A stretch of 64,000 bases of DNA from positions 6,769 through 70,768 of the forward strand of contig DASXTQ010000042.1 of assembly GCA_036505295.1 (NCBI GenBank), read 5' to 3'. A program made the position numbers and the translations under genes. The notes beneath the pieces are model-generated. The model saw only the letters and a list, made by a program, of their open reading frames with translations, did not search any database and had not been told where the DNA came from. Every line of letters starts with the position of its first letter. Positions within the stretch are counted from its first letter, which is position 1. This DNA is from Candidatus Eiseniibacteriota bacterium (GTDB lineage Bacteria > Eisenbacteria > RBG-16-71-46 > SZUA-252). Below, one piece after another: positions 10,198 to 26,786 of this stretch.

Positions 10198-10596
10198 CTA
10201 GTCTTCCTCGCCGGGCCAATTCTGCTGTACGCCGTAGACGCCCACCTTGAGCGTCTTCAGCGCGAGGAGTGCGCATTTGAGCCGGACGGGACCCAACTCG
10301 ATTCCAAGCATATCTAAAACGTCGTCCCGATTGATCAGTTTTACCTCGTCGAGCGTTTTTCCCTCGATCGCCTCCGTCAGCATGGAAGCGGCCGCGCGGC
10401 TGATCGAGCAGCCTTTGCCGCTGAACCGGACCGCATCGACCTTGTCGTCCTTGATCTTGAGATCGATCCGGATCTCGTCACCGCAGAGGGGATTTGCATC
10501 CTGGGCGGTGATATCCGGCTTCTCGAGGGTGCCCCAATTGCGTGGATTCTGGTAATGGTCGAGGATGGTCTCTCGGTAAAAGTCGTCGAGGCTCAT
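10198..10596 (-). CDS. sufU: SUF-system Fe-S cluster scaffold SufU (NifU/IscU-like)
   Basis: NPLCGDE...GCSIS...LKCALLAL conserved Cys ligands. Confidence 0.85.
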   Translation of the reverse strand: MSLDDFYRETILDHYQNPRNWGTLEKPDITAQDANPLCGDEIRIDLKIKDDKVDAVRFSGKGCSISRAAASMLTEAIEGKTLDEVKLINRDDVLDMLGIELGPVRLKCALLALKTLKVGVYGVQQNWPGEED

Positions 10597-11840: not shown

Positions 11841-11841
11841 G

Positions 11842-13233
11842 TCACGCCGCGGCCTTCCGCTCCACGGCGGCGGTCACGGTCGTGCGGAGCGATTCGGCCG
11901 GAATCCTCTCGAGCACAGGTTCGAAGAACCCCTGGATGATCATCCGTTCCGCCTCCGGCCGCGGGAGGCCCCTCGACCTCAGATAGAAGAGCTGGTCCTC
12001 GTCGACCTGGCCGACGGTGGCCCCGTGCGTACATCGAACGTCGTTTGCCTCGATTTCCAGGCTCGGGATCGAGTCCGCACGCGCTCTCTCGGAGAGAAGG
12101 AGATTCCGGTTCGCCTGGTAGGCGTCCGAGCGCTGGGCATCCTTGTGCACCTTGATCAGGCCCTGGTAGACCATCCGCGCGCGGTCGCGAAGCGCGCCCT
12201 TGAACAGGAGGTCGCTGACCGAGTGACCGACGTTGTGGTTCTGGAAGGTGTGGAAATCGAAGTGCTGCGTCCCATTCCCGAAGTAGCAGCCGGAGAACTT
12301 GGCCTCGGTCCCCTCGCCGTCGAGGTGCATCTCCAGATCCAGCTTGGTGAGCTTTCCGCCCAGCGCGGTGTAGGTCCAATGGAACCGCGCGTCGCGCGCG
12401 ATCCGTACGCGCTCCGTGCCGAAGTGATGGATGTTGCCACCCCAGCGCTGGAAGGTGGCGAGATGGAGGCTCGCGGATTGCCCCACCGTGACCTCGGTCG
12501 CGCCGACGTTCACGCCCGCCCCCGGCTCGCCGTGCGAGACGTACTCCTCGATGACCGCCGCTTCGGACCCGTTCCCCATTGCGATGACCACGTGCGGGAA
12601 CGTCCCGAGCTCGGGCGTCTCGCGGGTGAAGAGAAGCTGGATCGGACGCGGAACCTTGACCCCATCCGGCACGTAAAGAAACGCTCCGCCGCTCTCCAGA
12701 GCGGCCGCGAGCCCCGTGAAGCGGTTCTCGTCGAAGCGGACCGTCCGTCCGAGGAAGCGCTCCACGAGCGCGGGGTGCGCGCGCGCGGCATCCCGGATCG
12801 GCATCAGGACGACGCCGAGCTTCGCAAGCTCCGGCTCCCGGTCGATCAGAATCGCATTCGAGTCGAGCTGGACGAGGAGCGCCGAGCGCTCCTCCGGCGG
12901 CCCGATCTCGGCGCGGACCGCCGCGGGAAGCGCGCTCGTAGAAGCGACGGCGGGGTGCGGCTCCCGCACCGCGAGGATCGACTCCCATTTGAAGGAGCTG
13001 ATGTCGGTCCGCCGCCACAGCTCTTCGGTGCGTGCGGGAAACGGCGTCTTCTCGCAGTACGCCCACGCCGCCGCACGGCGCCGCGCCAGAAATTCAGGCT
13101 CCTCGGCCCGCTTCGAGAGCGAGGCGATCTCGCCTGGGTTCAAAGCGCCGACGCGAACCGAGTCGAGCGTCCGCGGAGGCGCCAGGGTGTCGGATGGATT
13201 CACGCTTGATTCTCCATGGGTTCGGGCTGCCAT
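11842..13233 (-). CDS. sufD: Fe-S cluster assembly protein SufD
   Basis: 463 aa SufB/SufD-fold protein located between sufB and sufS. Confidence 0.8.
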   Translation of the reverse strand: MAARTHGESSVNPSDTLAPPRTLDSVRVGALNPGEIASLSKRAEEPEFLARRRAAAWAYCEKTPFPARTEELWRRTDISSFKWESILAVREPHPAVASTSALPAAVRAEIGPPEERSALLVQLDSNAILIDREPELAKLGVVLMPIRDAARAHPALVERFLGRTVRFDENRFTGLAAALESGGAFLYVPDGVKVPRPIQLLFTRETPELGTFPHVVIAMGNGSEAAVIEEYVSHGEPGAGVNVGATEVTVGQSASLHLATFQRWGGNIHHFGTERVRIARDARFHWTYTALGGKLTKLDLEMHLDGEGTEAKFSGCYFGNGTQHFDFHTFQNHNVGHSVSDLLFKGALRDRARMVYQGLIKVHKDAQRSDAYQANRNLLLSERARADSIPSLEIEANDVRCTHGATVGQVDEDQLFYLRSRGLPRPEAERMIIQGFFEPVLERIPAESLRTTVTAAVERKAAA

Positions 13234-13246
13234 TGAACGGGAGCGG

Positions 13247-14662
13247 TCAGCCGACCGATCCCTCCATTTGGAGTTGGATGAGACGGTTCATCTCGACCGC
13301 GTACTCCATGGGCAGCTCCTTCGTGATCGGTTCGATGAACCCGTTCACGATCATGGCGGATGCTTCCGCCTCCGGGATGCCGCGGCTCATGAGGTAAAAG
13401 ATCTGCTCGTCGCCGATCTTCGAGACCGTCGCCTCGTGTCCGATCGTGACCTGATCCTCCTCGATTTCCATGTACGGATAGGTGTCCGACCGGGAATGCT
13501 CGTCCAGAAGGAGCGCGTCGCAGCGAACGGTGGACTTGCTGCCCTTGGCCCCCTTCGCGACCTTGATGAGCCCGCGGTAGCCCGCGCGGCCGCCGTCCTT
13601 GCTGATCGACTTGGACACGACGCTCGAGGTGGTGTTCGGCGCGGCGTGGACCGCCTTGCCGCCGGCGTCCTGGTGCTGGCCCTTGCCGGCGAACGCGATC
13701 GAAAGGATCTCCGCGTGCGCGCCCGGCTCCATAAGGTAGACGCTCGGATATTTCATCGTGAGCTTGGACCCGAGGTTCGCGTCCACCCACTCCATCCGTG
13801 CGTTGCCGTAGGCCATGGCACGCTTGGTGACCAGGTTGTACACGTTGTTCGACCAGTTCTGGATCGTGGTGTAGCGGCAGTAGGCGCCGCGCTTCACGAT
13901 GATCTCGACCACAGCCGAGTGAAGCGAATCGCTCGCGTAGGTCGGAGCCGTGCAGCCCTCGACGTAATGCACCGAGGCGCCCTCGTCCACGATGATGAGG
14001 GTCCGCTCGAACTGACCCATGTCCTTCGCGTTGATCCGGAAGTACGCCTGAAGCGGGAGATCCACCTTCACGCCCTTCGGCACATAGATGAACGAGCCGC
14101 CGCTCCACACCGCGCTGTTCAGCGCGGCGAACTTATTGTCCGAAGGCGGAATGACCGTCCCGAAGTATTCCCGGAAAAGCTCCGGGTGCTCCTTCAGCGC
14201 GGTGCCCGTGTCGAGGAAGATGACGCCCTTCTCCGATAGGCTCGCCTTGATCTTGTGGTAGACCGTCTCGGAGTCGTACTGGGCGCCCACGCCGGAGAGA
14301 AACTTCTGCTCCGCCTCGGGAATGCCCAGACGATCGAAGGTCTTCTTGATGTCGGCCGGGACCTCGTCCCAGGTCTTGCTCTGCTCCTCGGCCGGCTTCA
14401 GGTAGTAATAGATGTTCTGGAAGTCGATCTCCTCGACCTTGCCCCCCCAGCGGGGCAGAGGCTTCTTCTCGAACTGCTCGAGCGCCTTCAGACGAAACTC
14501 CTTCATCCAGGCGGGCTCGTTCTTGATGTCGGAGATCTGCGAGACGACTTCCTTGTCGAGTCCGCGGCGCGTCTTGAAGACGGACTTCTCCTCGTCGTGG
14601 AAGCCGTACTTTTCCTTGTATCCTTCTCGGATATCCAGCGTCGGCTGCTGTGTCGTTGTCAT
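13247..14662 (-). CDS. sufB: Fe-S cluster assembly protein SufB
   Basis: 471 aa. Strongly conserved SufB sequence throughout. Confidence 0.9.
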
Positions 14663-14680
14663 GGTTGCCTCCCGGCCGCC

Positions 14681-15451
14681 CTAAGCGGCCTGGTCCTCGC
14701 GGATCCAGTCATATCCCTGCTTCTCGAGCTCGAGCGCAAGGTCGGCCCCGCCGGACTTGACGATCCGCCCGTCCACGAGCACGTGGACGAAGTGCGGCTT
14801 AATGTAGTTCAAGATCCTCTGGTAGTGCGTGATCAAGAGCACGCCCAGGTCCGGTCCCGTCAGCGCGTTCACGCCTTCGGAGACGATCCTGAGCGCGTCG
14901 ATGTCGAGTCCCGAATCGGTCTCGTCCAGAATCGCGATCTCGGGCCTTAGCACGGCCATCTGCAAGATTTCCGCGCGCTTCTTCTCACCGCCCGAGAAAC
15001 CGTCGTTCAGGTAACGGCCCGCGAACGACTCGTCCATCCTGAGTAGAGCCATCTTCTCCTTGACGAGCGTCCGGAATTCCTTGGGCGGGATCGGCTTCTC
15101 CTCGCCCAGCTCCTTCCGCCGCACGTTCAGCGCGTTCCGGAGGAAATTCGCGACGCTCACGCCCGGGATGGCCGTCGGGTACTGGAACGCGAGGAAGATG
15201 CCCTTCCGCGCGCGCTCGTCCGGGGAAAGCTCGAGGACGTCCTCGCCCTTGTAGAGGATCGTTCCGTCCGTCACCTCATATTTGGGATTCCCCATCAGCG
15301 CGTTCGCGAGCGTGCTCTTGCCCGATCCGTTCGGTCCCATCAGGGCGTGGATCTCACCCTTGTTCACGGCCAAGGAAAGGCCCTTCAATATGGGCTTCCC
15401 GTCGATCGAGATGTGCAGATTTCGAATCTCCAGCGTCGGTGTAGCGCTCAT
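14681..15451 (-). CDS. sufC: Fe-S cluster assembly ATPase SufC
   Basis: Start at [12 protein letters not shown] with AAGGAGA RBS. ABC ATPase with Walker [10 protein letters not shown] and ABC signature. Confidence 0.9.
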
Positions 15452-15474
15452 GTTCTCCTTCCGTGTGTTCTGGC

Positions 15475-15867
15475 CTAAAGTGTGAAGCTGTCCCCGCATC
15501 CGCACGTCTTCTTGACGCGCGGGTTCTTGAACTGGATCCCGGTCCCTAAGAGCCCGCGTTGGTAGTCGATCTCCGTCCCCGCGAGAACATCCAGCGAGCG
15601 CGGATCCACATAAACGGTCAAGTCCTCGTATTCGAGCACGGTGTCGCTGCCGCGACGTTCCGTCGTGAAACCAAGAAAGTAGCTGTACCCAGAGCAACCC
15701 CCCGCCTTGACCCCGATGCGAAGCGCCTGCCCTTCCTTGCCTTCGTTCCCGCGGATACGCTTCACGTAGTCCACGGCGGCAGGCGTGAGGGAGATGGAGC
15801 TCGTCCCCTGGGGTTCGCGGGTCTCGGTCTCCGTCGTGCGAATGTCGTTTGTTGGCTCTTCGCTCAT
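15475..15867 (-). CDS. sufA: A-type Fe-S carrier (HesB/IscA/SufA family)
   Basis: Conserved C-x(n)-CGCG ligand pattern (GGCSGYSY ... KTCGCGDSF). Confidence 0.85.
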
Positions 15868-16397
15868 GGGTTCTCCGGCGCGATGTGGAGCACGATCCTA
15901 TCGGATCGGCCCGGGTCGGTGTGGAAGCCCGCGACGAGCGCCGGCTCCTCCTTCATGCCATGATCCTCGGGGCAATGCGGGCAGTCCTGCTGCGTCGTTC
16001 GCGGCGGCCGGCATGCTTGGCAGGTACGCAGATACTCGAGCGTTCCTTCCAGCTCGCGCGCGAGCGTCTCGTACCGGATGATCGCCTGGCGCGTCTCCGT
16101 GAGCTTCTCCTGGAACGTTTCGCGCACGACGGCCATCGCCTCGGGGCCGTACCGGCTCCCGTGCCAGGCCTTGAGCAGGCCTTGAATCTGATGGAGCGAA
16201 AGCCCCGTTTCTTGGAGGAGCTCGATCCACCGGATTCGCGTGATGGCGGACTCGTCGTAGAGCCGAAATCCCCCGTTGCTGCGCGCAACCGGATGGAGCA
16301 GGTCGAGCTCCTCGTAGAGCCTGAGCGCCCGGACCGACTTGCCGGTCTGCCTTGCCAAGTCGCCAACCTTGAGGTGTTTTGAAACGACCGCTGCCAT
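15864..16397 (-). CDS. MerR-family transcriptional regulator with C-terminal Cys-rich cluster (C-x2-C-x10-C-x-H-C)
   Basis: N-terminal MerR HTH ([26 protein letters not shown]). Start at M7 (MAAVVSK) with GGGAGGG RBS. The first in-frame ATG at 16415 lies upstream of the predicted transcription start. Confidence 0.75.
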
Positions 16398-16419
16398 ACG
16401 ATCCCTCCCGTACATCTAC

Positions 16420-16450
16420 ATCTTACCCTTACGCGAAGGTTAGAGTCTAA
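16420..16450 (-). promoter_or_regulatory. MerR-type sigma70 promoter: -35 TTAGAC, 19-bp spacer carrying dyad CCTTCGCGTAAGG, -10 TAAGAT
   Basis: Read on minus strand. The 19-bp spacer is the hallmark of MerR-regulated promoters. Positioned about 7 nt before the merR RBS. Confidence 0.55.
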
Positions 16451-16666
16451 CTAAAATTTCGGCCGGGGAGCCTCGGGTGTTGAGCTGATTCAAAGGTTGG
16501 CGAGTGTCTGGGATAACTTGTTTATACGTATTAAGTTAGATGTTTCATTCCCGCATTCGGTTCATGCCGCTGGCCGCGACGGATGCCAACACAACCGGGG
16601 GTCACCGCAGTAGGCTCGGTGGTGTATATTGATGTGAGCCGGAGTCCATCCTTTCTGGAGGTTTTC

Positions 16667-17044
16667 ATGAAGCTGATCCAGGGCGCGCTGCTAGCCATCT
16701 TGATCCTCGTGCTCGGTGTTACAGCACTTTCTTGCAAGAAGAAGTCGAACCCCGTGGCACCCGGCGGTGGGGCCGACGTGACGATCGACATCGTCGCGGA
16801 CATGAACGCCGGGGCGTTCGGCGGCAAGCGTACCGTCGCCGTGGGCAAGACAGTTGCCTGGCGGAACACCCGCGGCACGACGCATACGTCCACCTCTGAA
16901 GGTGGCCCAGCAGGCGGCCAGTGGGACACCCAAGGGATCAGCCCAAGCGCCACGAGCGCGCCCATCCAAATGAACACGGTCGGAACGTACCCGTACGAGT
17001 GCACCATCCACCCGAGCATGAAAGACACGCTCGTGGTCCAGTAG
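16667..17044 (+). CDS. Cupredoxin-fold (plastocyanin/azurin-like) blue-copper lipoprotein
   Basis: GGAGG RBS. Lipoprotein signal (LGVTALSCKKK). C-terminal copper-ligand motif YPYECTIHPSMKD (Cys-x2-His-x2-Met) with upstream His. Confidence 0.7.
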   Translation: MKLIQGALLAILILVLGVTALSCKKKSNPVAPGGGADVTIDIVADMNAGAFGGKRTVAVGKTVAWRNTRGTTHTSTSEGGPAGGQWDTQGISPSATSAPIQMNTVGTYPYECTIHPSMKDTLVVQ

Positions 17045-17045
17045 G

Positions 17046-18527
17046 CTAGCGCGACCGGCCGGGTTTTCGTTTTGGTCGATGTGGCCGAGGGCCCGCGGAG
17101 CGGGGCCCGGTCTCGACAGTCGTCCAGCGCAGGAAGGGCAGGAGCCGGTGCACGCCGCCATGCGTCCCCACCAGGGATGGACTTTGGAGGGCTCCCAGGG
17201 GCGCGATGCGCGGAACCCCCATCGCCGCCAGGGCGGCGGCTAGGGCAGTCCTCTCCCGGCCCTTTGCCTCGAGCCCGATCGCCTCGATGAAGCGCGCGGC
17301 CGGCGCAAGCGCCGCCTCGACCTCCTCCACCCCGTCCACGGCATGGACGCGCACCGTGCGATACGAGGGGGTGGGCTCGAAGCGCGCGCCGTCCTCGTAG
17401 ACCAGCGTCCAGTCGGTCCCCTCGCTCGAGGCTAGAACCTGCGTGCCTCGACTTCCCGTCGCCTCCTCGAAATGCGCCTGCGCACGATAGAGCTGCACGC
17501 GCGCGGCTTGGCTCGCTTCGGGCTCGCTTCGGGGCAGTCCGTCGCGGAGCGACTCGAGCGCCCCGCCCAGAGCCGACGCGAACGCCGCGGGCCCGACGTC
17601 CCCACCGCGCTCGACGTAGAACGCGTGCGGCGAGAGGCAGCCCTGCTGATCGTAGAGCGCGACGTCGAACGCGGCCCGCGCGGCGAGGCTCCCCAGACCC
17701 GCGCGCGTGAGCGACGCACTGGAGATGTACGCGACGCTGACCTTCGAGCCGTGGATCACGACCTTGGCGTCCGGGCGCGTCTCCCGGGCGATGCTCATCG
17801 TCGAGTTCTCTCCTCCGAACGCGAGCACCGCGGGCGCACGCCGGACAGCCGCGCGATCGAGCTCGATGGTTCCCCCCTTCCACCACGCGACGACAATGCA
17901 GGCGCCGAGGTCTTCGTCCTCCTCGGCGATCGTCCTCGCGAGGAGCGGTGCTATGACCGGCTCCTGCGAGGAGGCCTTCGCGAAGAGCGCCGACTTCATG
18001 GCGAGCGCCGAGTAGAAGGGCCAAACCGGGAGTCCGGGCACGTTCCCCGCGTAGATCTGGAGCATCCACTCGGGACCACACGCCTGGCGCGGGATCCCTT
18101 TCCGATCGGGCGTGGGGCGGTCGAGCGCGGCCGCCGATCCCAACTCCGAGGCGACCCAGCGCGACACGCCGCCCGCCGCAAGGGGACCGAAGGTGTCCGT
18201 GAGCGCCCGCTCGATCATCGGGGTCGAGAAACGCCCGGAGCGCGCGAGCCACGCGATGGCGTTCCGGCGCACGGGACTCTGCGGGTCCAGGAACCGCTGC
18301 GCGACGCGCTCGAGCACGCGATGGATCTCGGCCGCGGGCCGGCGCGCAAGACGCTCCGCGCGCGCCGAGCGGATCGCCTCGACCCAGGTCTCGATCGAGG
18401 CCGGGGTGACGGTCGCGAGCCGCAGCTCGATCGCGTCGTGGGGCGGGCCGAACCGTTGGACGCTCGTCTCGGCGTCCCGCTCCACCTCGGGCGGAAGATA
18501 GAAAGCGTCGAAGAGCCCCTGCGTCAT
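17046..18527 (-). CDS. LuxC-like long-chain acyl-CoA reductase (aldehyde-forming)
   Basis: About 494 aa from MTQGLFDAFYLPPE. Resembles the LuxC acyl-CoA reductase family along its length. Start overlaps the upstream LuxE-like stop by 4 bp. Confidence 0.6.
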   Translation of the reverse strand: MTQGLFDAFYLPPEVERDAETSVQRFGPPHDAIELRLATVTPASIETWVEAIRSARAERLARRPAAEIHRVLERVAQRFLDPQSPVRRNAIAWLARSGRFSTPMIERALTDTFGPLAAGGVSRWVASELGSAAALDRPTPDRKGIPRQACGPEWMLQIYAGNVPGLPVWPFYSALAMKSALFAKASSQEPVIAPLLARTIAEEDEDLGACIVVAWWKGGTIELDRAAVRRAPAVLAFGGENSTMSIARETRPDAKVVIHGSKVSVAYISSASLTRAGLGSLAARAAFDVALYDQQGCLSPHAFYVERGGDVGPAAFASALGGALESLRDGLPRSEPEASQAARVQLYRAQAHFEEATGSRGTQVLASSEGTDWTLVYEDGARFEPTPSYRTVRVHAVDGVEEVEAALAPAARFIEAIGLEAKGRERTALAAALAAMGVPRIAPLGALQSPSLVGTHGGVHRLLPFLRWTTVETGPRSAGPRPHRPKRKPGRSR

Positions 18528-19702
18528 CGCGGCACGCCCGGCGCGCGCTCCGCTCGCGCCCCGCGTTCCCGCTCGAGAAATTGCTCGAACGGGAGCGAGC
18601 ACCCGCGCCGCTCCGCCTCGGGGAGGCGACCCTCGAGCGTGAGCCTGTTGCCCGCGGCGGCGCCGACATCCTCGGTCTGAATCGCGAGCGGCACGTCGAG
18701 ATTCGCGAGGTCGTAGTGGACCAGGAGCCCGGGCCTTCCTTCGGGCAGATCGAGCATCGTCTCCGGATCGAGCACGCGGGTGCGCACCCACGGAGGGATC
18801 ACGAACCCGCGCCTCGCCGGGCGCCGCTCGTGCGCGGCCAGGAGCGTGTCTTCATAGAACTGGCTTCCCATTTCCGCCATTCCGTATTCGTTCACAAGGT
18901 GCGTTCGCGGAATCCCGAACACGCGGTGAATGGAAGCGGCCATGTCGTCAGGGCGAAGCTCGACCCGCGTTCCCTTCGCCCCTCCGGTATCCATCGCCCG
19001 GCTTCCTGGGGGGAGCGCGAAACAGAGCCCCCTCCGATCGCACCGCTCGACATAGGCGCGGAGGAGAAGCGTGGTGCCGAGGAGGAGGACCGGCACCCTC
19101 CCGTCGAGGGAACGCGCGAGCTCCGCGTCGGCACGCTCCCATCGTGGTTCTCCGTGTTCGACGATCCATGAGGGGGCGTCACAGAGCCGGGCAGCGACAC
19201 GGTCGGCCATGAACCAGAGCGAGGAGCGCGGCGATTCGGCGCGCGTGGGCCCGAAGATGATCATCTTGAGCCGCGCACCGTCCGGCAGGAGGTGCCGGGT
19301 GAAGCTCTTGAGAAGCGACGTCTCGTAGAGATGGGTCGACGTGAGATGCACACGGCCCGGCCTCGTGATCGTCGTCCCGCTCGTCTCGAACGTGACGGTG
19401 GGGGATGCCGGCGCCGCGCCTCCACTCGTCCCCCCGTCCCCAACCCGCGCCGCGCTCAGACCGTGCTCTTTGAACGCCGAAGAGGGCACCGGCGGAATCT
19501 CGCGCCAATCACCCAACCCGCCGGGCCCGCGCCCGACATGCCGCGCGTACGCCCCGTACTCCGGTATCGTATCGCACTGGATGCGGAAGGACCGAATCGC
19601 GAGGTCCGAGAAGGCAGCCTCCGCCCCGCGCGCTTGCGCCGCCGGCTCCTCCCACCCCGCCGCCGAGATGAAGCGGGCGAGATCCGCCTCCATCTCGCGC
19701 AT
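18524..19702 (-). CDS. LuxE-like acyl-protein synthetase / PaaK-like adenylate-forming enzyme
   Basis: About 392 aa from MREMEADLARF. Adenylate-forming motif ETSGTTITRPG. Genomic pairing with the LuxC-like gene. Confidence 0.55.
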   Translation of the reverse strand: MREMEADLARFISAAGWEEPAAQARGAEAAFSDLAIRSFRIQCDTIPEYGAYARHVGRGPGGLGDWREIPPVPSSAFKEHGLSAARVGDGGTSGGAAPASPTVTFETSGTTITRPGRVHLTSTHLYETSLLKSFTRHLLPDGARLKMIIFGPTRAESPRSSLWFMADRVAARLCDAPSWIVEHGEPRWERADAELARSLDGRVPVLLLGTTLLLRAYVERCDRRGLCFALPPGSRAMDTGGAKGTRVELRPDDMAASIHRVFGIPRTHLVNEYGMAEMGSQFYEDTLLAAHERRPARRGFVIPPWVRTRVLDPETMLDLPEGRPGLLVHYDLANLDVPLAIQTEDVGAAAGNRLTLEGRLPEAERRGCSLPFEQFLERERGARAERAPGVPR

Positions 19703-19731
19703 CGGGCCGGTACCTGGGATGTCGCTGGCGG

Positions 19732-20265
19732 TCACGTTGGCTCCCCGCACGCGAGATCCGCCGCTTGCTCTGCGGTCGCGGCCAGATGCACGAGGGCGCG
19801 GATGCTGGGGTCCACTTCGAAGCTGCGCGATAGGGTGTCCAGCAAGTCCCGCCACGGCTCGCCCATCAGGATGAGCCTCCGGTTCATTCCTTTTCGGTGC
19901 ATGAGAAGGGTCCAGAGCCAGAAGACTTCGCTCAACGTGCCGACACCGCCCGGAAGCGCGATCGCGGCGCTCGTCCCTTCGAGCAGCCGCTCGATTCTGA
20001 CCGCAAGGCTCGGCGAAGGGACCACCTCGTCCAGGTGTGGATTCGGCGTTCTCGTCTCGTCGAACCAATCGAGGGTGCAGCCGACCACCCGGCCGCCCGC
20101 GCCCTTCATGCCCTCTGCAAGCGCCCCCATGACGCCGGCGTAGCCGCCGCACCGGACCTCGGCGCCTCGGCGAGCAAGGGCACGACCCAACTCCTGTGCG
20201 AGATCGTAGTTGGGGTCCCCGGGCGGCGTGCGGCTGCTCCCGAAGACAACGACCGACGTCTTCAT
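19732..20265 (-). CDS. LOG-family (TIGR00730) cytokinin riboside 5'-monophosphate phosphoribohydrolase-like protein
   Basis: Start MKTSVVVFGSS. Motifs GGYAGVMG and PGGVGTLSE characteristic of LOG family. Confidence 0.75.
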   Translation of the reverse strand: MKTSVVVFGSSRTPPGDPNYDLAQELGRALARRGAEVRCGGYAGVMGALAEGMKGAGGRVVGCTLDWFDETRTPNPHLDEVVPSPSLAVRIERLLEGTSAAIALPGGVGTLSEVFWLWTLLMHRKGMNRRLILMGEPWRDLLDTLSRSFEVDPSIRALVHLAATAEQAADLACGEPT

Positions 20266-20352
20266 TCTGCCTCGATCGACGCGGAGCGGCAACCCTTTGG
20301 GCTGCTTCCGTATCGGTGGCGCCGGACGGGCCAGCGTGGTACCATCGTTGCC

Positions 20353-22128
20353 GTGAAACGCCACAGCGATTCGCCCGCCGGCGATCGATCCGAGCGGATC
20401 GTCCGGCTCGCGCTGGCCCAGATCAATCCCACGGTCGGCGATCTCCCCGGAAACGCCAAGAAGGTCATCGAAACCATCGAGCGCGCCCGCGACCAGGGGA
20501 CGGACTTGATCGCCTTCCCCGAGCTTACGCTGACCGGGTATCCGCCCGAGGATCTTCTTTTGCGCCCGGAGTTCCTCGACCAGAACCAGGCGGCCCTGGA
20601 GGAGGTGGCGCGCGGCACCACCGGGATCACCGCGGTCGTGGGCTTCGCGCAGCGCGCGGACGACGTCTACAACGCGGCCGCGATCGCGCACGACGGCGAG
20701 GTGGTGGGAATCTACCAGAAGCGCCACCTGCCGAATTATGGGGTGTTCGACGAAGTGCGCTATTTTCGTCCCGGAAACGAGTGCTTCGTCTGCAAGCGAG
20801 GCGCGCTCACGTTCGGCGTGAACATCTGCGAGGACATCTTCACGCCCGTGGGTCCGACCGCTGCGCTCGCCGTCTACGGAGACGCAGAGGTGGTGATCAA
20901 CCTATCCTCGTCTCCCTTCCACGCCGGCAAATCCGCGGCCCGGGACCGCATGCTCTCCACCCGTGCCCTGGACGGCGTCTCGGTGGTCGCGTTCGTGAAC
21001 ACCGTCGGCGGCCAGGACGAGCTTGTCTTCGACGGCAACAGCCGCGTCTATGGGCCCCAAGGCGAGCTGTTGGCGCAGGCGCGCGCATTCGAGGAAGACC
21101 TGGTGATCGTGGACATCGATCTCGAGAGCGTTTTCCGCGCCCGCCTCCACGACCCCCGTAGCCGGATCGCGGCGCAACGCGACGACGCACCCGAGATGAG
21201 CGTGGTCACGCTGCGCCCGATACCCCGACGGGCACGCCCCAAGATCGGCGCCCGCAAGGTCACGACCCCGAGCGGGGCCGAGGAGATCTACCGGGCGCTC
21301 GTGCTCGGCACGCGCGATTACGTCGGCAAGAATGGATTCGAGCACGTGGTGATCGGACTGAGCGGCGGGATCGATTCCGCCCTCACCGCCTCGATCGCCA
21401 CGGACGCCTTGGGCCCGGGGCACGTGACCGGCGTGTTCATGCCTTCGGGAATCACCTCGCGGGAGAGCAGCGAGGACGCGGCGGCGCTCGCGAAGAACCT
21501 CAAGATCGATCTCCTCGCCGTGCCGATCGAATCGGAGATCGCCGCGTACCGCGAAAGCTTGAAGGAGATCTTCGCCTCGTCGCAGGAGGACGTGACCGAG
21601 GAAAACATCCAATCGAGAATCCGCGGAACCGTTCTGATGGCGCTCTCGAACAAGTTCTCCTGGCTCGTGCTCACCACCGGGAACAAGAGCGAGCTGTCGG
21701 TCGGCTACGCGACTCTCTACGGCGACATGGCCGGCGGCTTCTCGGTATTGAAGGACGTATCGAAGACGCTCGTATACGAGCTGGCCCGGCATCGGAATGG
21801 CGCGGCCCAGACGCCCTGGATCCCGGAACGGACGCTGACACGCGAGCCTACGGCGGAACTGAGGCCGGGGCAGCGCGATACGGACACCCTCCCGCCGTAC
21901 GACACGCTCGACCCCATTCTCAAGGCGTACGTCGAAGAGGACTCCGAGGTAGAGCGGATCGTCGCGATGGGGTACGATCGCGCCCTCGTGCAGCGGGTGA
22001 TCCGAATGGTGGACCGGGCCGAGTACAAGCGCCGCCAGGCGCCTCCCGGAATTCGGATCACACCACGCGCCTTGGGTAAGGACCGCCGACTCCCGATAAC
22101 GAACCGCCACCAACCCTGGCGTGACTGA
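20353..22128 (+). CDS. nadE: Glutamine-dependent NAD+ synthetase (CN-hydrolase + NAD synthetase domains)
   Basis: N-terminal nitrilase-type domain (FPEL...CKRG...ICED). C-terminal SGGIDS PP-loop. GTG start chosen because the 5' ORF extension would overlap the convergent LOG gene. Confidence 0.8.
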   Translation: MKRHSDSPAGDRSERIVRLALAQINPTVGDLPGNAKKVIETIERARDQGTDLIAFPELTLTGYPPEDLLLRPEFLDQNQAALEEVARGTTGITAVVGFAQRADDVYNAAAIAHDGEVVGIYQKRHLPNYGVFDEVRYFRPGNECFVCKRGALTFGVNICEDIFTPVGPTAALAVYGDAEVVINLSSSPFHAGKSAARDRMLSTRALDGVSVVAFVNTVGGQDELVFDGNSRVYGPQGELLAQARAFEEDLVIVDIDLESVFRARLHDPRSRIAAQRDDAPEMSVVTLRPIPRRARPKIGARKVTTPSGAEEIYRALVLGTRDYVGKNGFEHVVIGLSGGIDSALTASIATDALGPGHVTGVFMPSGITSRESSEDAAALAKNLKIDLLAVPIESEIAAYRESLKEIFASSQEDVTEENIQSRIRGTVLMALSNKFSWLVLTTGNKSELSVGYATLYGDMAGGFSVLKDVSKTLVYELARHRNGAAQTPWIPERTLTREPTAELRPGQRDTDTLPPYDTLDPILKAYVEEDSEVERIVAMGYDRALVQRVIRMVDRAEYKRRQAPPGIRITPRALGKDRRLPITNRHQPWRD

Positions 22129-22174
22129 CGTGACCGACGTGACCGACGACTCGAAGACGAAGACGGAGGATCCG

Positions 22175-24370
22175 ATGAAGAAGCTCGCCAGTCCGGCGAC
22201 CGCGAAAGCGGTCAGTCCGGCGGGAGGAGCGTCCCCCGCGTTTCCCGCCACGCCACGCGCCAACACCGAACGTCCCCAAACAAAAGGAATCCAAGTGAGC
22301 GAGCACCCGTACCCGTCCGTCGATCTCGAACCCTATCTGAGCGCTCGGGACCGCAAGGGCGGGAAACGAGTCCTTCGCGACCGCTCGGGCCGGATCGCGC
22401 TCGTCCGGGAGGACGCGCTCAACCAAGACCTGTTTCGCACGAATGGGGTCCCGCTTCACAACGTGGGCCGCCGCTTCCGCGTCGTCGGGGAAGACGGCAT
22501 CACGGAGCAGGAGCGCTGGATCGCCCCCTTCGACGTGATCCACCGCTCCCGCGAAAACCCGAAAAGTTTCGACGGACTCAAGCTCCCTTTGGGCGAGCTC
22601 GTCTACGACCACGGACTTTATCTTAAATTCAGCCCCGGGGTCGCGGAGCTGGGGGTGAACGACCGCGGCGACGTGCTATTGCGGCGCGATTCCTCCAGCG
22701 ATCCCACCATCGGGCCCGTGTGGAACTCCTTCAACACGGTAATCACCGGCCGGGCGAAACGCCTCGTCACCCGGACGACCCTCGACGCGCACCAGGCGGA
22801 TGTGAAGGAGGCGGCCGGCTGGCTCAAGGCGCTCGAAGCCGTCTCGAAGCGGAAGACCTTGATCAGCCGCTTCTCATGCGCGGGTGTGCAGTACACGCAC
22901 CGAGGGAACGTTCCGTATTTGAGGCGCACGTCGCAGACGAACTTCTTCCCGCCGCAAGACGCCGAGATGATGGTCATCGCGAAACAGATCGACCAGCGCT
23001 TCCGCGAGCGCGGCATGAAGAAGGCCCCGCGCGTCACGATCCTGTCGCTCATGGGAGTGCCGCGAAGCGAGGCCGAGCACGCGCAATTCTTGCGGCAGTT
23101 GAAGCGCGCCCGCGTCTCCGCGGAGAGGCTCGGGATTCCGGCGCGGCTCCGGGATTCCCGCTTGTGGGACCCGGATTCGAAAGCGGTCGTGACCTCGAAC
23201 TTCGTCTACTTCTGCCCCCTCTCCGATCTCAAGGACGAGGTCACGATCCTCACGGTGAACACGGACTACCACGGCGAGGTGAAGAGCCGCGGCGTGCTCT
23301 CGCCGCTCATGGCGATACTCTCCAAGGTCGACATCATTTCTGCGCACGCCGGAGCCGCGATCTTGAATCGCGAAGGAACCGCCACCACGTTCACGGGGCC
23401 GACCGGAACGGGCAAGACGACCGCGGGCGCTTTCTGGGCGGAGCGAAACGAGGTCTATCGTCGACTGGAGCTCAAGCGACGCTATCGGATCGACCTCGAG
23501 CGCGAGGGTTTGTCGGGGAACGAGCTGGAGGAGAAGCTCGAGCGGATCTTCCCGGAAATCGGGATCCTGTGCCAGGAAGACTGGATCGAGATCCTGAAGG
23601 ATTCGAAACGCGGGTGGGTGTTCTGGTCGACGGAGCGCTGCCTCTATGCCCGCACCGGGGGATTCCCGGGACTGAGATTCGTGCTCTCCGATAACGAGCC
23701 GATTTTGGAAAACGTCACCGCCGATTTCGGCGGCGGCGGAACGATCGACAAGCTCGGCCGGATCACGCACGACTATTTCCCCGAGCGGATTTTCTACGAT
23801 CCCACGTGGGGTCACCTGTTGTACGACAGAAAATCGCGGCCGATCGCGGCGAATGTCTTTCTGGAGCGGAACCCGAGCTTGGATTTCTGCGTCAAGCGCG
23901 TGGGACCGGACGAGGCGCTCCAGTGGCTCCTGATCGGTCGGACGCCGGGCGGAAAGCACGAGCCCCTGTACAACGCCTACCCCGATTTCAGCGGGCTCTT
24001 GATGACGAACGGGGTCGTGGGAGAAAAGCTCGTCGACGCGGTTCGCGCCGCGGAGCGGGGAGATCTCGGGCCGCTTGGAAACGGGGACGCGACCCTGGGT
24101 CGCGCGATTTACGACAAGCTCAAGATCCAGCTCGATCTCTGGCGCGAGAACTGCTCCCAGGTCCCGACCTACATCGTGAACGGGGCTGCCGGGCTCGAGA
24201 TGACGCAGGACATGAACTGGCTCCTGTCCGAGCATCCGGACGCGTTCGGTGATTGGAAAAAGGTCACGACCGTCGATTTCCAGCGCTACATGAACGAGCG
24301 CTACGGGGTCACGTATAGCGGGCGCGGGGCCTGGACGCACATCTCCCCGGCGCAGCGCATGGCGCGATAG
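22175..24370 (+). CDS. Large hypothetical protein with PEPCK/HprK-like P-loop kinase core
   Basis: GGAGGA RBS before MKKLASP. C-terminal half has FTGPTGTGKTTAGAF ... IGILCQEDW ... RCLYARTGG, resembling PEPCK-ATP kinase-1a/kinase-2 boxes (GLSGTGKTT / LIGDDEHGW / GGCYAKT). N-terminal about 400 aa unrecognised. Confidence 0.6.
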   Translation: MKKLASPATAKAVSPAGGASPAFPATPRANTERPQTKGIQVSEHPYPSVDLEPYLSARDRKGGKRVLRDRSGRIALVREDALNQDLFRTNGVPLHNVGRRFRVVGEDGITEQERWIAPFDVIHRSRENPKSFDGLKLPLGELVYDHGLYLKFSPGVAELGVNDRGDVLLRRDSSSDPTIGPVWNSFNTVITGRAKRLVTRTTLDAHQADVKEAAGWLKALEAVSKRKTLISRFSCAGVQYTHRGNVPYLRRTSQTNFFPPQDAEMMVIAKQIDQRFRERGMKKAPRVTILSLMGVPRSEAEHAQFLRQLKRARVSAERLGIPARLRDSRLWDPDSKAVVTSNFVYFCPLSDLKDEVTILTVNTDYHGEVKSRGVLSPLMAILSKVDIISAHAGAAILNREGTATTFTGPTGTGKTTAGAFWAERNEVYRRLELKRRYRIDLEREGLSGNELEEKLERIFPEIGILCQEDWIEILKDSKRGWVFWSTERCLYARTGGFPGLRFVLSDNEPILENVTADFGGGGTIDKLGRITHDYFPERIFYDPTWGHLLYDRKSRPIAANVFLERNPSLDFCVKRVGPDEALQWLLIGRTPGGKHEPLYNAYPDFSGLLMTNGVVGEKLVDAVRAAERGDLGPLGNGDATLGRAIYDKLKIQLDLWRENCSQVPTYIVNGAAGLEMTQDMNWLLSEHPDAFGDWKKVTTVDFQRYMNERYGVTYSGRGAWTHISPAQRMAR

Positions 24371-24386: not shown

Positions 24387-26786
24387 CTAACGCAGGATCA
24401 GCACCGGTCGCGCCGCCGTGCGGCTGCCGGCGCGCACGCGGAGCCAATAGCGGCCGGATCCCAGACGCCGGCCGCGGTCGTCCAAGCCGTCCCACGTACA
24501 ACGCACGAGACCCGAGGTCGACGGCTCCGTAGATGAAGGAACGACGGGGAGACTTCGCACCAGCCGTCCCTGAATATCGAACACCCTGGCTTCGATCCCG
24601 CCGACGCTCAAGCCCCCCGATGGATCGAACACGCGGATCTCTGCGCGTTCCGTCATGGGATTCGGCATCACCGAAACGGCGAGCTGCGGCGCCGGCGGAG
24701 GCGTCGGCTCCTCTCCCACCGCCACGATCGTCGCCAGGCCGGGACGCAGCAGCAGCGCCCGGGTACCGTCCGATACCAGAAGATCCGGAATCGGACCCAC
24801 CGTCCCCAAGAACCGAAGGGAGGTCGCGGAGGAGCTGGGCGCCCTATGCAAGGCGACCTCGAGCGCGCGCCCCTCGGTCCATAGTTGACCGCGCGCGAGC
24901 GTAACGGTCGCGGTATAGGGAGGGGACGCCGTGGGCGCGATCCGATCCAGCTCCGCCGCACCGGGGACGCGCATCAACGCGACACCGCCCGCACCCTGCG
25001 CCACGGCCACGTTTCCGGTCCACGTCCCGGCCAATCCAATCGCGGGCGCCGCGGTCTGCTGCGCCAGCACCAAGGCCGGCGCGCCCCCCAGTGGCGCGCG
25101 AACGATCTGCATCCCTCCAGCGGACGCGGCCACTGCGAGGTAGACGCTGTCGCGCGTGTTCGAGATCCAGGCGACGTCGCGGGCGTAGGGCGTGCCCCAC
25201 GCGGAGGAGAGCGCGACCGAACCGAGCGGCGCGAAGGTGACCACGGCCGGCGCGCCGGACCCGACGCTCAAGTGGTACACCGAGACGCCCGCGGCCCCGT
25301 CCGCAAGCGCGAGGTCGGGGGAGCCCGCGCCGGCGCGGCGAAGCTCGAGGTCCAACGCGCTCCCCGGGGTCGGCATTGTGCCCGCGGCATACGGGACGCC
25401 CCCGAGGGAATCGAACGCCGCAGTCACATCGATCGCGACGATGCCGGAGCCCGTGCCCGCGAGAACCGAGGCGGGATTGTAATCCGACGCCGTCGGCACC
25501 GAGCCGGTGTCGGCGTCGGCGACGAGCGCGACGATGCGCCCCGACGCGGCGCGGAACCACGCCACGTCGGTCGCGAACCCGGGAAGGGGAATCGTTCGCA
25601 GAATCCGATCGTCGATCCCGTTCATGTCCTGGTCGAAAAAATCCTCCCAGGTGCCGAACGGTGGATCGATCACGGTGCGCAGATCGAGGAGCATCAGCCC
25701 CGAACGCCCCGCCGCGAGCAGCCCGAGATCGAGCGTGTCCCCGGCGGGGCCCACGAATCCCGGCACGACCGCGACCGACGCGGCGTACGACGGAATGCGC
25801 ACCTGCCCCACCAGGCGGTCGTCCGTCCCATTTCCGTCCGTGTCGACCGCGCCGATTCGAGCGAGCGTCGTGCCCGCGGTCAGGACGCGCACGCCGTCGA
25901 GCCCGGCCGGGAGGAGCCACACGCCGCGCGCCGCAAGCTCCACCGGGCCGTCACGTCCTGCCGCAGGCTCTCCCAGGGGGGTCAAGCCCATAGGAACAAG
26001 CGCGGTTGGTAAGGACTCCGGAAGCGCCGCGGAGGAGAGCGCGTGGCCGATGGAGTTCGAGATGCCGCCGAGGCTCGTGACGCTGCATTGCAGGGCGTTG
26101 GCGTTCCCGCCGTAGGCGCTCCCCGCGATCGTCGTCGGGGCGCTTATCGTGACCGTGGCGCCTCCCGGCAGATCCACGTCCACCGGGGGCTCGGTGCCCG
26201 GGAAGATGCCGTCGGTGTTGTTGGGATCGGGATTGGTGCGGCCGTCCGTGACTTGGACGGACTCGGCGCTCGCCACCAGGCTGTGAATCTGAAACGAGAC
26301 CAGCCCCGAGGTGTTCGACGGAGCGGACCAGGAGAAAGGCGAAGGCCAGACCTCGGGCCTCCCGCCGGTCGCCGCGAAGATCGCCGAGATCGCCTTCGCC
26401 ACGTGCCCGCCGCCGATCTGATCGGTGAGCTCCACGGACAAAGACGCGCCGCCGAAGGCGAGTACCGGGACGGTCACCGAAAACGAAACGCGCCGGACGC
26501 TGTCCGGGGGTACCACGATCGAGCCGTTCAGCGGCGAGACGCCGAGCGCGAAGGCGCCTCCCGGGGTCGCGGCCCAGTTCAGGCTCGCGGGCGCGCCGTT
26601 CGCGCGGAGCGTCATCTCGATGGAATGCGTCGAGCCGGGAGCGAACGTGGCGCTCGGCAGGAGCACCGTGACCGGGCGCGGAGGGATCCAGCCGGTCCCC
26701 GCCCTCGCGGGGGGAGCGTGGATCGCCCCCGCGAGCAGCGGGATGAGGGCGAGCGTCAGCGCAGGATGTGGGGATCGTGCTCGCAT
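24387..26786 (-). CDS. Large secreted beta-propeller-like protein with C-terminal FlgD-Ig/T9SS-type sorting domain
   Basis: Signal peptide. 799 aa rich in Gly/Ala/Thr. C-terminal ...VFDIQGRLVRSLP...GSGRYWLRVRAG resembles FlgD Ig-like/Por C-terminal domains. Confidence 0.6.
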   Translation of the reverse strand: MRARSPHPALTLALIPLLAGAIHAPPARAGTGWIPPRPVTVLLPSATFAPGSTHSIEMTLRANGAPASLNWAATPGGAFALGVSPLNGSIVVPPDSVRRVSFSVTVPVLAFGGASLSVELTDQIGGGHVAKAISAIFAATGGRPEVWPSPFSWSAPSNTSGLVSFQIHSLVASAESVQVTDGRTNPDPNNTDGIFPGTEPPVDVDLPGGATVTISAPTTIAGSAYGGNANALQCSVTSLGGISNSIGHALSSAALPESLPTALVPMGLTPLGEPAAGRDGPVELAARGVWLLPAGLDGVRVLTAGTTLARIGAVDTDGNGTDDRLVGQVRIPSYAASVAVVPGFVGPAGDTLDLGLLAAGRSGLMLLDLRTVIDPPFGTWEDFFDQDMNGIDDRILRTIPLPGFATDVAWFRAASGRIVALVADADTGSVPTASDYNPASVLAGTGSGIVAIDVTAAFDSLGGVPYAAGTMPTPGSALDLELRRAGAGSPDLALADGAAGVSVYHLSVGSGAPAVVTFAPLGSVALSSAWGTPYARDVAWISNTRDSVYLAVAASAGGMQIVRAPLGGAPALVLAQQTAAPAIGLAGTWTGNVAVAQGAGGVALMRVPGAAELDRIAPTASPPYTATVTLARGQLWTEGRALEVALHRAPSSSATSLRFLGTVGPIPDLLVSDGTRALLLRPGLATIVAVGEEPTPPPAPQLAVSVMPNPMTERAEIRVFDPSGGLSVGGIEARVFDIQGRLVRSLPVVPSSTEPSTSGLVRCTWDGLDDRGRRLGSGRYWLRVRAGSRTAARPVLILR

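What the first reader, a model, noticed from the sequence alone, without database searches (positions are those of the whole stretch)
17046..20265. LuxC/LuxE-like fatty-acyl reductase pair without luciferase genes, followed by a LOG-family gene
A LuxE-like acyl-protein synthetase/adenylating enzyme (18524-19702) overlaps by 4 bp a LuxC-like acyl-CoA reductase (17046-18527). The 4-bp overlap indicates translational coupling. There is no luxAB or luxD in the window, suggesting a fatty-aldehyde-generating system with a non-bioluminescent role (e.g. wax ester, alkane or signalling-lipid synthesis). A LOG-family nucleotide hydrolase lies just upstream on the same strand.
Basis: partly seen in the sequence, partly recalled or inferred. 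Interest (0 to 1): 0.6.

Follow-up and report, generated by a model that had tools for sequence, protein, structure and literature searches.

The report
LuxE/LuxC-type acid reductase pair, Eisenbacteria
This is a real, conserved pair of enzymes that most likely turns a carboxylic acid into an aldehyde using ATP and NAD(P)H, found in an uncultured soil bacterium (Candidatus Eisenbacteria); such light-unrelated copies of the bioluminescence enzymes LuxE and LuxC are already known to be common, so the finding is sound but fairly ordinary.

Summary
Three co-oriented minus-strand genes encode a LOG-family protein (19732-20265), a LuxE-family acyl-protein synthetase (18524-19702) and a LuxC-family acyl-thioester reductase (17046-18527). 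LuxE and LuxC overlap by ATGA. Both match only the P. phosphoreum LuxC-LuxE complex (7XC6) in the PDB by sequence. The acyl-carrying cysteines and adenylation motifs are invariant across homologues, and dN/dS is 0.14-0.35.

No luciferase, LuxD, ACP or wax-ester synthase family was found among the roughly 55 ORFs scanned (the largest and the coding-like ones).

The window comes from Candidatus Eisenbacteria. There nadE | LOG-LuxE-LuxC | cupredoxin | MerR-suf is syntenic down to 57% LuxC identity.

The family is large: 2485 clusters at 50% identity. In 84 loci from other phyla LuxE sits directly upstream of LuxC in 60. The neighbours are aldehyde-using enzymes (class-III aminotransferase, Zn-ADH, SDR) and solute transporters. 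LOG is never nearby.

Within Eisenbacteria LOG usually abuts LuxE and is fused to it in one lineage. It is missing in two lineages and separated by inserted genes in three.

Verdict: a non-luminescent member of the known LuxE/LuxC acid-reductase kind. The substrate is unknown, and "fatty" is unproven. Interest is modest.

The parts
19732..20265 (-). LOG-family (TT1887-like, SLOG cluster 4) gene of 177 aa. It is the first gene of the co-oriented trio.
   Evidence: PF03641 59.9 bits and PF18306 56.8 bits. TIGR00730 scores 74.1, below its cut-off of 96.35. The best PDB match is 1WEH, T. thermophilus TT1887, E=3.5e-28. The PGGVGTLSE motif is present. dN/dS is 0.19-0.25.
18524..19702 (-). LuxE-family acyl-protein synthetase (adenylating enzyme) of 392 aa. 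An alternative in-frame GTG start at 19735 overlaps the LOG stop codon.
   Evidence: PF04443 39.2 bits. A profile of 24 orthologues matches only 7xc6_E in the PDB, E=4.7e-24, over nearly the full length. Invariant motifs are FETSGT, TGGAK (K243), NEYGMAE, QTED, GR (R359) and RGCSL (C368). The AlphaFold model has pLDDT 84.9 and its best fold match is PaaK1, 2Y27. The alternative start is shown.
17046..18527 (-). LuxC-family acyl-thioester (acyl-CoA/acyl-protein) reductase of 493 aa.
   Evidence: PF05893 222.7 bits. The only PDB sequence hit is 7xc6_A, with YDQQGCLS aligned to the catalytic YDQQACFS. C297 is invariant in 19 Eisenbacterial sequences and its column is invariant in 20 distant ones. 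Foldseek's top hit is 7xc6_A at E=7e-21 and TM 0.70, against 1e-12 or worse for ALDHs. dN/dS is 0.14-0.19.
18524..18527 (-). ATGA junction where the LuxE stop codon overlaps the LuxC start codon.
   Evidence: Read directly from the sequence. The same 4-bp junction is called in L001, L002, L004 and L036.
20266..20352 (.). 87-bp divergent intergenic region between LOG (minus strand) and nadE (plus strand, GTG start at 20353). It is the presumed promoter region for the trio.
   Evidence: Sequence. The gene calls in L001 give the same 87-bp spacing. No sigma-70 consensus match was found, so its promoter role is inferred only.

Best explanation
The LuxE-like and LuxC-like genes encode a two-protein, ATP- and NAD(P)H-dependent carboxylic-acid reductase that is not part of any light-producing system.

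Inferred mechanism, by homology to the P. phosphoreum LuxC-LuxE complex:
1. The LuxE-like enzyme adenylates a carboxylic acid.
2. It moves the acyl group onto its own C-terminal cysteine (C368, in RGCSL).
3. It hands the acyl group to C297 of the LuxC-like reductase.
4. NAD(P)H reduces that thioester and releases the aldehyde.

The ATGA overlap couples translation of the two proteins, which fits a complex of fixed stoichiometry. The pair is a vertically inherited chromosomal feature of Candidatus Eisenbacteria.

The substrate and the fate of the aldehyde are unknown. A long-chain fatty acid is possible but not indicated.

The upstream LOG-family gene is a lineage-specific operon neighbour. It is usually abutting and once fused, but it is dispensable for keeping the pair.

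Shown here: family membership, catalytic motifs, coupling, conservation and purifying selection. Inferred: the chemistry, the acyl relay between the two proteins, and co-transcription with LOG.
For: Family and structure:
- Pfam LuxC and LuxE scores are above their cut-offs.
- By sequence, 7XC6 chains A and E are the only PDB matches, with both acyl-cysteine motifs aligned.
- The LuxC model is closest to 7xc6_A. The LuxE model has the PaaK-type adenylating fold.
- The residues that PMC9157457 reports as essential in LuxE (Lys238, Arg355, Cys364) have invariant counterparts K243, R359 and C368.

Coupling and conservation:
- The ATGA overlap is in the sequence.
- LuxE lies directly upstream of LuxC in all Eisenbacterial loci with sequence there, and in 60 of 84 loci from other phyla.
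- dN/dS is 0.14-0.35.

Support for an aldehyde product:
- In other phyla the pair's neighbours are aldehyde consumers: class-III aminotransferase, Zn-ADH and SDR.
Against: - No biochemical data exist for any member of this clade.
- Identity to characterised LuxC and LuxE is only about 18-20%.
- No counterpart was found for the C-terminal segment of P. phosphoreum LuxC that closes its long acyl cleft (PMC9157457). The sequence alignment stops at chain residue 443 of 477. The window protein's last 25 residues are unconserved and have low pLDDT.
- No aldehyde-using enzyme is adjacent in Eisenbacteria.
- In Gemmatimonadota-type loci LuxC and LuxE lie 3-5 kb apart, so tight pairing is not universal.
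Confidence: 0.78

Rival explanations
1. The pair is a true long-chain fatty-acid reductase whose fatty aldehyde feeds wax-ester, fatty-alcohol, alkane, ether-lipid or lipid-signal synthesis.
For: The only characterised relatives reduce myristic acid (PMC9157457). A beta-oxidation and acyl-CoA synthetase cluster lies about 20 kb away at 38984-44211.
Against: - No wax synthase, decarbonylase, ACP, LuxD-type acyltransferase or fatty-alcohol reductase was found in the scanned ORFs of the window.
- The NCBIfam long-chain LuxC and LuxE equivalogs score far below their cut-offs.
- No counterpart of the cleft-closing C-terminal segment of LuxC was found.
- The nearest relatives sit beside SSF or NitT/TauT-type transporters and ArgD-like aminotransferases, which points to soluble substrates.
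Confidence: 0.25
2. LOG, LuxE and LuxC form one three-enzyme module peculiar to Eisenbacteria. The LOG domain would either hydrolyse a nucleoside monophosphate linked to the reaction (for example the AMP released by LuxE, or a nucleotide-borne acid) or sense a nucleotide ligand that controls acyl activation.
For: - LOG is co-oriented with and directly abuts LuxE in about 18 of 23 informative Eisenbacterial loci. Stop and start codons overlap in L002 and L004, and possibly in the window.
- A single 571-aa LOG-LuxE fusion ORF occurs in two metagenome assemblies.
- LOG is under purifying selection.
Against: - LOG is absent between nadE and LuxE in L008 and L010, although LuxE-LuxC are intact there.
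- Unrelated genes are inserted between LOG and LuxE in L014 and L015, and directly upstream of LuxE in L013.
- None of 84 LuxC-family loci from other phyla has a LOG gene within 7-8 kb.
- The whole region is syntenic across the phylum, so adjacency alone is weak evidence.
Confidence: 0.13
3. The two enzymes do not relay an acyl group to each other. LuxC acts as a stand-alone acyl-CoA reductase, and the LuxE-like protein is an independent PaaK-like ligase or acyltransferase.
For: LuxC can use acyl-CoA in vitro (PMC9157457). The fold of the LuxE-like protein is closest to the PaaK ligases. The two genes are separated in some Gemmatimonadota loci.
Against: - The LuxE-like protein has no ANL C-terminal (CoA-thioesterification) subdomain. 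It ends in the LuxE-specific GC-x-L tail with an invariant cysteine.
- ATGA coupling, and adjacency in 60 of 84 loci from other phyla.
Confidence: 0.08

Closest known systems
LuxC-LuxE fatty acid reductase of the lux operon (Photobacterium phosphoreum, PDB 7XC6; PMC9157457)
   Same: - Same two Pfam families.
- The catalytic Cys of LuxC lies in a DQQxC motif.
- LuxE has the adenylation motifs, Lys/Arg counterparts and the short C-terminal tail with a GC-x-L cysteine in place of the ANL C-terminal subdomain.
- It is the closest solved structure for LuxC.
   Different: - About 18-20% identity, and far below the NCBIfam equivalog cut-offs.
- No luxA, luxB or luxD nearby.
- The gene order is LuxE then LuxC with a 4-bp overlap, instead of luxC...luxE separated by luxDAB.
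- No counterpart of the C-terminal oligomerisation and cleft segment of LuxC was found.
- The substrate is unknown.
Non-luminescent LuxE/LuxC homologues in surface-glycan loci: Aeromonas flagellin glycosylation islands (PMC7874193) and the LuxE domain of Vibrio cholerae RfbN in O-antigen tetronate synthesis (as cited in PMC4772473)
   Same: LuxE- and LuxC-family genes acting without luciferase, presumed to activate or reduce an acyl group for a non-light purpose.
   Different: Those loci also carry ACP, FabG-like, glycosyltransferase and sugar-synthesis genes. The Eisenbacterial locus has none of these. It sits between nadE and a cupredoxin/MerR-suf block, with a LOG gene upstream.
LuxE-LuxC pairs of other soil phyla (Pseudarthrobacter, TA06, Chloroflexota, NC10, Gemmatimonadota), annotated only as 'acyl-CoA reductase'
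   Same: These are the nearest sequence relatives. They are co-linear over residues 4-479 at 33% profile identity and usually share the LuxE-upstream-of-LuxC arrangement.
   Different: They are flanked by a class-III aminotransferase, Zn-ADH, SDR, or SSF or NitT/TauT-type transporters, and never by LOG.
Carboxylic acid reductases (CAR: A-PCP-R single polypeptides). This comparison rests on general knowledge.
   Same: The same net chemistry: acid + ATP + NADPH gives an aldehyde through an enzyme-bound thioester.
   Different: CARs carry the acyl group on a phosphopantetheine arm and use an SDR-type reductase domain. Here the carriers are protein cysteines and the reductase is ALDH-like.
Thermus thermophilus TT1887 (PDB 1WEH) and the LOG cytokinin riboside 5'-monophosphate phosphoribohydrolases
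   Same: TT1887 is the best PDB match of the upstream gene product (E=3.5e-28). The PGGxGTxxE motif is conserved.
   Different: The protein scores below the cut-offs of TIGR00730 and of the cytokinin-LOG equivalog. No function is known for the TT1887-type subgroup.

Membership tests
LuxC family (PF05893, acyl-CoA/acyl-protein reductase) | Profile HMM score above the curated cut-off over the whole domain | tested here: met
   222.7 bits against 21, covering model positions 7-401 of 401.
LuxC family (PF05893, acyl-CoA/acyl-protein reductase) | Acyl-accepting catalytic cysteine | tested here: met
   C297 in YDQQGCLS aligns to YDQQACFS of 7xc6_A. It is invariant in alignment A1 (19 sequences), and the matching column is invariant in A2 (20 sequences from other phyla).
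LuxC family (PF05893, acyl-CoA/acyl-protein reductase) | ALDH-like fold that is closer to LuxC than to aldehyde dehydrogenases | tested here: met
   Model pLDDT 75. Foldseek gives 7xc6_A at E=7e-21 and TM 0.70. The next hits are ALDHs at E=1e-12 or worse.
LuxC family (PF05893, acyl-CoA/acyl-protein reductase) | C-terminal oligomerisation segment that closes the L-shaped acyl cleft (P460-P488 in PMC9157457) | tested here: inconclusive
   The phmmer alignment ends at chain residue 443 of 477. Window residues 469-493 are a basic tail, unconserved among orthologues, with pLDDT below 50. Relatives in other phyla end a few residues after the RWxDxE motif. However, the Foldseek alignment to 7xc6_A spans 491 columns and its C-terminal register was not inspected, so absence of the segment is likely but not shown.
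LuxC of the bioluminescence system (NCBIfam equivalog NF052251) | Score at or above the equivalog cut-off | tested here: not met
   68.2 bits against 750.
LuxE family (PF04443, acyl-protein synthetase) | Profile HMM score above the cut-off, with similarity over the full length | tested here: met
   For the single sequence, 39.2 bits against 24.9, covering the C-terminal half only. A profile of 24 orthologues matches 7xc6_E at E=4.7e-24, profile positions 22-360 against chain residues 31-368, with no other significant PDB hit.
LuxE family (PF04443, acyl-protein synthetase) | Adenylate-forming core without the ANL C-terminal subdomain, ending in a short tail with the conserved acyl-cysteine (TRxxKGCxLS) | tested here: met
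   The 392-aa protein ends 24 residues after RGCSL. C368, G367 and L370 are invariant. The TR part of the motif is not conserved. The fold matches the N-terminal domain of PaaK1.
LuxE family (PF04443, acyl-protein synthetase) | Counterparts of the catalytic Lys238 and Arg355 (PMC9157457) | tested here: met
   K243 in TGGAK is one position off in the pairwise alignment. R359 in GR aligns. Both are invariant in alignment A3.
LuxE of the bioluminescence system (NCBIfam equivalog NF052244) | Score at or above the equivalog cut-off | tested here: not met
   32.1 bits against 550.
LuxC-LuxE fatty acid reductase complex | Physical complex, acyl relay between the two cysteines, NADPH-dependent aldehyde release, and preference for long-chain acids | not testable with these tools
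   Only indirect support: the ATGA overlap, conserved adjacency and aldehyde-using neighbours in other phyla.
lux operon (bacterial bioluminescence system) | Luciferase genes luxA and luxB, and the acyltransferase luxD, in the same locus | tested here: not met
   No PF00296 or LuxD-type family among about 55 ORFs scanned across the 64-kb window. None appears in the syntenic loci L002-L004 or L036 either. The rest of the genome was not examined.
LOG family (PF03641 / TIGR00730; cytokinin riboside 5'-monophosphate phosphoribohydrolase) | Pfam score above the cut-off and the PGGxGTxxE nucleotide-binding/catalytic motif | tested here: met
   59.9 bits against 27. LPGGVGTLSE is present. The first glycine-rich motif is the variant CGGYAGVMG.
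LOG family (PF03641 / TIGR00730; cytokinin riboside 5'-monophosphate phosphoribohydrolase) | Score at or above the NCBIfam cut-offs (TIGR00730 subfamily; cytokinin-LOG equivalog NF058542) | tested here: not met
   74.1 bits against 96.35, and 54.8 bits against 300. The closest structure is the uncharacterised TT1887.

The most novel reading that the evidence does not exclude
In Candidatus Eisenbacteria a LOG-type nucleotide hydrolase or sensor has been recruited to a LuxE/LuxC acid reductase. It is fused to LuxE in one lineage. This would make a three-part module that links nucleotide cleavage or sensing to aldehyde formation, for example producing or controlling a nucleobase- or ribose-phosphate-related aldehyde signal. 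No such combination has been described.
Probability: 0.12. Interest if true: 0.55.

Novelty: new member of a known kind. Interest (0 to 1): 0.28.

Why it matters
LuxE/LuxC-type reductases are one of the few natural routes from a free acid to an aldehyde. Outside bioluminescence, none of the thousands of homologues has a defined substrate.

This locus adds a well-delimited, strongly conserved example from an uncultured phylum. The comparison made here shows that the wider clade repeatedly sits beside transaminases, alcohol dehydrogenases and solute transporters. That gives concrete hypotheses (acid to aldehyde to amine or alcohol) and candidate biocatalysts.

For this window itself the finding mainly corrects an annotation. 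It is not a cryptic lux system, and there is no evidence yet that it makes lipids.

Tried and rejected
- An Rfam scan of the whole window found nothing.
- The sigma-70 promoter and terminator scan of 15400-20600 gave no more hits than shuffled sequence.
- PADLOC gave no defence-system match for the trio or its neighbours, so a SLOG-type anti-phage system was rejected.
- The genome-contig scan used peptide patterns so specific that only Eisenbacteria were recovered. Wider context came from a profile of distant representatives.
- Literature searches for a described LOG/SLOG-LuxE link found nothing relevant.
- A tambjamine paper turned out to concern an ALDH-like reductase (TabE) that its authors do not place in any recognised acyl-CoA reductase family and that has no LuxE partner.
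- All-against-all clustering of neighbouring ORFs was contaminated by shadow ORFs in these high-GC loci. Only clusters checked with Pfam are used.
- I considered whether LOG is tied to nadE rather than to LuxE. LOG loss in L008 and L010 leaves both neighbours intact, so this could not be decided.
- Foldseek could not rank 7xc6_E for the LuxE model, because only 118 of its residues are resolved (PMC9157457).
Full report
**Observation**

The three minus-strand ORFs are present as described. They are LuxC-like at 17046-18527 (493 aa), LuxE-like at 18524-19702 (392 aa) and LOG-like at 19732-20265 (177 aa). Their third-position GC is 0.81-0.87, the coding signature in this 65% GC window.

Pfam assigns all three above the curated cut-offs. 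LuxC PF05893 scores 222.7 bits, LuxE PF04443 39.2 bits, and LOG PF03641 59.9 bits with PF18306 56.8 bits. The LuxE stop and LuxC start share ATGA at 18527-18524.

LOG ends at 19732. The annotated LuxE ATG is 29 nt downstream. An in-frame GTG at 19735 overlaps the LOG stop as GTGA and is preceded by GGGGAG, so the whole trio may be translationally coupled. nadE starts divergently at 20353, leaving an 87-bp intergenic region.

Pfam scans of about 55 ORFs across the window (the largest and the coding-like ones) found no luciferase, LuxD, ACP or wax-ester synthase family.

**What the proteins are**

By sequence, the only PDB match of the LuxC-like protein is chain A of 7XC6, the P. phosphoreum LuxC-LuxE complex. 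YDQQGCLS aligns to the catalytic YDQQACFS. The LuxE-like protein likewise matches only chain E, with RRGCSL aligned to the acyl-cysteine motif KGCSL.

A profile of 24 orthologues matches LuxE over almost its whole length at E=4.7e-24, and matches nothing else in the PDB. In that alignment several elements are invariant:
- the P-loop FETSGT;
- TGGAK (K243);
- NEYGMAE;
- QTED;
- GR (R359);
- RGCSL (C368).

PMC9157457 shows that the corresponding Lys238, Arg355 and Cys364 are needed for adenylation and thioesterification in LuxE.

The AlphaFold model of the LuxC-like protein (pLDDT 75) is closest to 7xc6_A, at E=7e-21 and TM 0.70. Aldehyde dehydrogenases follow at E=1e-12 or worse. The LuxE-like model (pLDDT 85) has the PaaK-type adenylating fold. 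This is the similarity the cryo-EM paper itself describes.

Neither protein is an orthologue of the luminescence enzymes. NCBIfam's long-chain LuxC and LuxE equivalogs score 68 against 750, and 32 against 550.

No counterpart was found for the C-terminal segment that closes the long acyl cleft in P. phosphoreum LuxC. The sequence alignment stops before it. The window protein ends in an unconserved, low-confidence basic tail, and relatives in other phyla simply end there. The C-terminal register of the Foldseek alignment was not inspected, so this absence is likely rather than shown.

All three genes are under purifying selection, with dN/dS of 0.14-0.35 against three orthologous loci.

**Whose genome, and how conserved**

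The best genomic match is a Candidatus Eisenbacteria MAG at 94% identity. Most of the 27 GTDB species-representative loci recovered carry an Eisenbacteria label; the six labelled otherwise that extend far enough show the same gene order.

The arrangement PEPCK-like, nadE | LOG, LuxE, LuxC | small cupredoxin on the opposite strand | MerR, sufA, sufCBDS is kept down to 57% LuxC identity. The pair is therefore a vertically inherited core feature of this phylum. Because the whole region is syntenic, the local neighbours say little about function.

**The wider family**

An exhaustive search of representatives at 50% identity finds 2485 LuxC-family clusters at E of 0.001 or better. The Eisenbacterial clade is well separated, with its next relatives at 39% identity or less. 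Those relatives come from TA06, Chloroflexota, Gemmatimonadota, NC10, Tectomicrobia and cultured Arthrobacter/Pseudarthrobacter.

I examined 84 such loci:
- LuxE lies directly upstream of LuxC on the same strand in 60.
- LuxE lies elsewhere in the flank in 9.
- No LuxE was found in 5 despite room upstream.
- The contig is too short upstream in 10.

The recurrent neighbours, checked with Pfam and NCBIfam, are these:
- an ArgD/LysJ-like class-III aminotransferase, directly adjacent in about 14 loci;
- a Zn alcohol dehydrogenase, in frame with LuxE in L087;
- a FabG-like SDR;
- a NitT/TauT-type ABC transporter, or an SSF transporter.

These neighbours are what one expects around an enzyme that makes an aldehyde from an imported acid. 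They support the inferred chemistry and argue against assuming a lipid role.

**The LOG gene**

Its best structural relative is the uncharacterised T. thermophilus TT1887. It keeps the PGGxGTxxE motif but scores below the NCBIfam LOG cut-offs.

For a functional link with LuxE:
- It abuts LuxE in about 18 of 23 informative Eisenbacterial loci.
- Stop and start codons overlap in several of them.
- One lineage carries a single 571-aa LOG-LuxE ORF, seen in two assemblies.

Against a functional link:
- L008 and L010 have no LOG between nadE and LuxE.
- L014 and L015 have unrelated secreted-protein genes inserted between LOG and LuxE, and L013 has one directly upstream of LuxE.
- None of the 84 loci from other phyla has a LOG gene nearby.

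I therefore treat LOG as a lineage-specific operon neighbour. A true functional partnership remains a minority possibility, at about 0.12.

**Comparison with what is known**

LuxE- and LuxC-family genes without luciferase have been reported before:
- in Aeromonas flagellin glycosylation islands, alongside ACP and FabG-like genes (PMC7874193);
- in Vibrio cholerae RfbN, for the tetronate substituent of the O antigen;
- in Riemerella, where a luxE-homologue mutant changes virulence (PMC4772473).

The present locus is another non-luminescent member, in a new phylum and a different gene context. It is not a new kind of system.

**Verdict**

The most likely function is an ATP- and NAD(P)H-dependent acid-to-aldehyde reductase working by a Cys-to-Cys acyl relay (confidence about 0.78 for the chemistry). 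The substrate is unknown. The fatty-acid/lipid reading is possible (about 0.25) but has no specific support.

Novelty: a new member of a known kind. Interest: about 0.28.

Noticed in passing
window 16583-17044 (+): A 153-aa lipoprotein-like cupredoxin. It has a lipobox-like LSC, a C-terminal C-x2-H-x2-M copper motif, and an amicyanin NCBIfam hit at E=7.6e-8. It is convergent with LuxC, and the two stop codons are 1 nt apart, leaving no room for a terminator. It is also divergent from a CueR-like MerR gene (15864-16415) across a 167-bp spacer, which suggests MerR-type metal or redox control. It is conserved in every Eisenbacterial locus.
   Followed up: partly
L036 6001-7716 and L037 6001-7716 (protein P0504): A natural in-frame LOG-LuxE fusion ORF of 571 aa, seen in two JGI metagenome assemblies and followed by LuxC with a 4-bp overlap.
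   Followed up: partly
L044 4567-5817; L057 8427-9653; L087 4509-6893; L086 8397-10959; L032 5366-10327: In other phyla the LuxE-LuxC pair is flanked by an ArgD/LysJ-like class-III aminotransferase, a Zn alcohol dehydrogenase (in frame with LuxE in L087), a FabG-like SDR, a NitT/TauT-type ABC transporter or an SSF transporter. This suggests acid to aldehyde to amine or alcohol pathways acting on imported substrates.
   Followed up: partly
window 22121-24370 (+): A 749-aa protein whose only family signal is a roughly 60-residue match to the nucleotide-binding part of PEPCK_ATP. It overlaps the nadE stop by 8 nt and is conserved next to nadE in most of the Eisenbacterial loci that extend that far. 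Its function is unknown.
   Followed up: no
window 7111-16415 (-): A long co-oriented run: MerR, SufA, SufC, SufB, SufD, SufS, NifU-N, Rieske ferredoxin, FeS_assembly_P, pterin-4a-carbinolamine dehydratase and an ADP-forming acyl-CoA synthetase. It lies immediately downstream of the trio and is syntenic across the phylum.
   Followed up: partly
window 44000-50000: A GC dip (0.56-0.59 against about 0.65). It contains a TPR-sigma54 activator (44964-47168) and a 1168-aa Ser/Thr kinase-AAA_16-TPR protein (47792-51298). It may be acquired DNA or simply genes of different composition.
   Followed up: no
window 24387-29621 (-): Two very large proteins (799 and 919 aa) ending in a FlgD_ig-like domain, one of them with a matrixin (M10) protease domain. 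Orthologues are present in the syntenic Eisenbacterial loci. They are probably secreted or surface proteins carrying a C-terminal sorting domain.
   Followed up: no
window 38984-44211: A beta-oxidation set about 20 kb from the trio: a FadB-like multifunctional enzyme, a thiolase and an acyl-CoA synthetase. No evidence links it to LuxE/LuxC.
   Followed up: no
L014 7717-8916; L015 7126-8865; L013 46-789: Unrelated genes encoding hypothetical proteins (a signal peptide is apparent in the L015 one) are inserted between LOG and LuxE in L014 and L015. In L013 an ORF resembling the C-terminal part of the L015 insert lies directly upstream of LuxE, and the contig ends before any LOG gene.
   Followed up: partly
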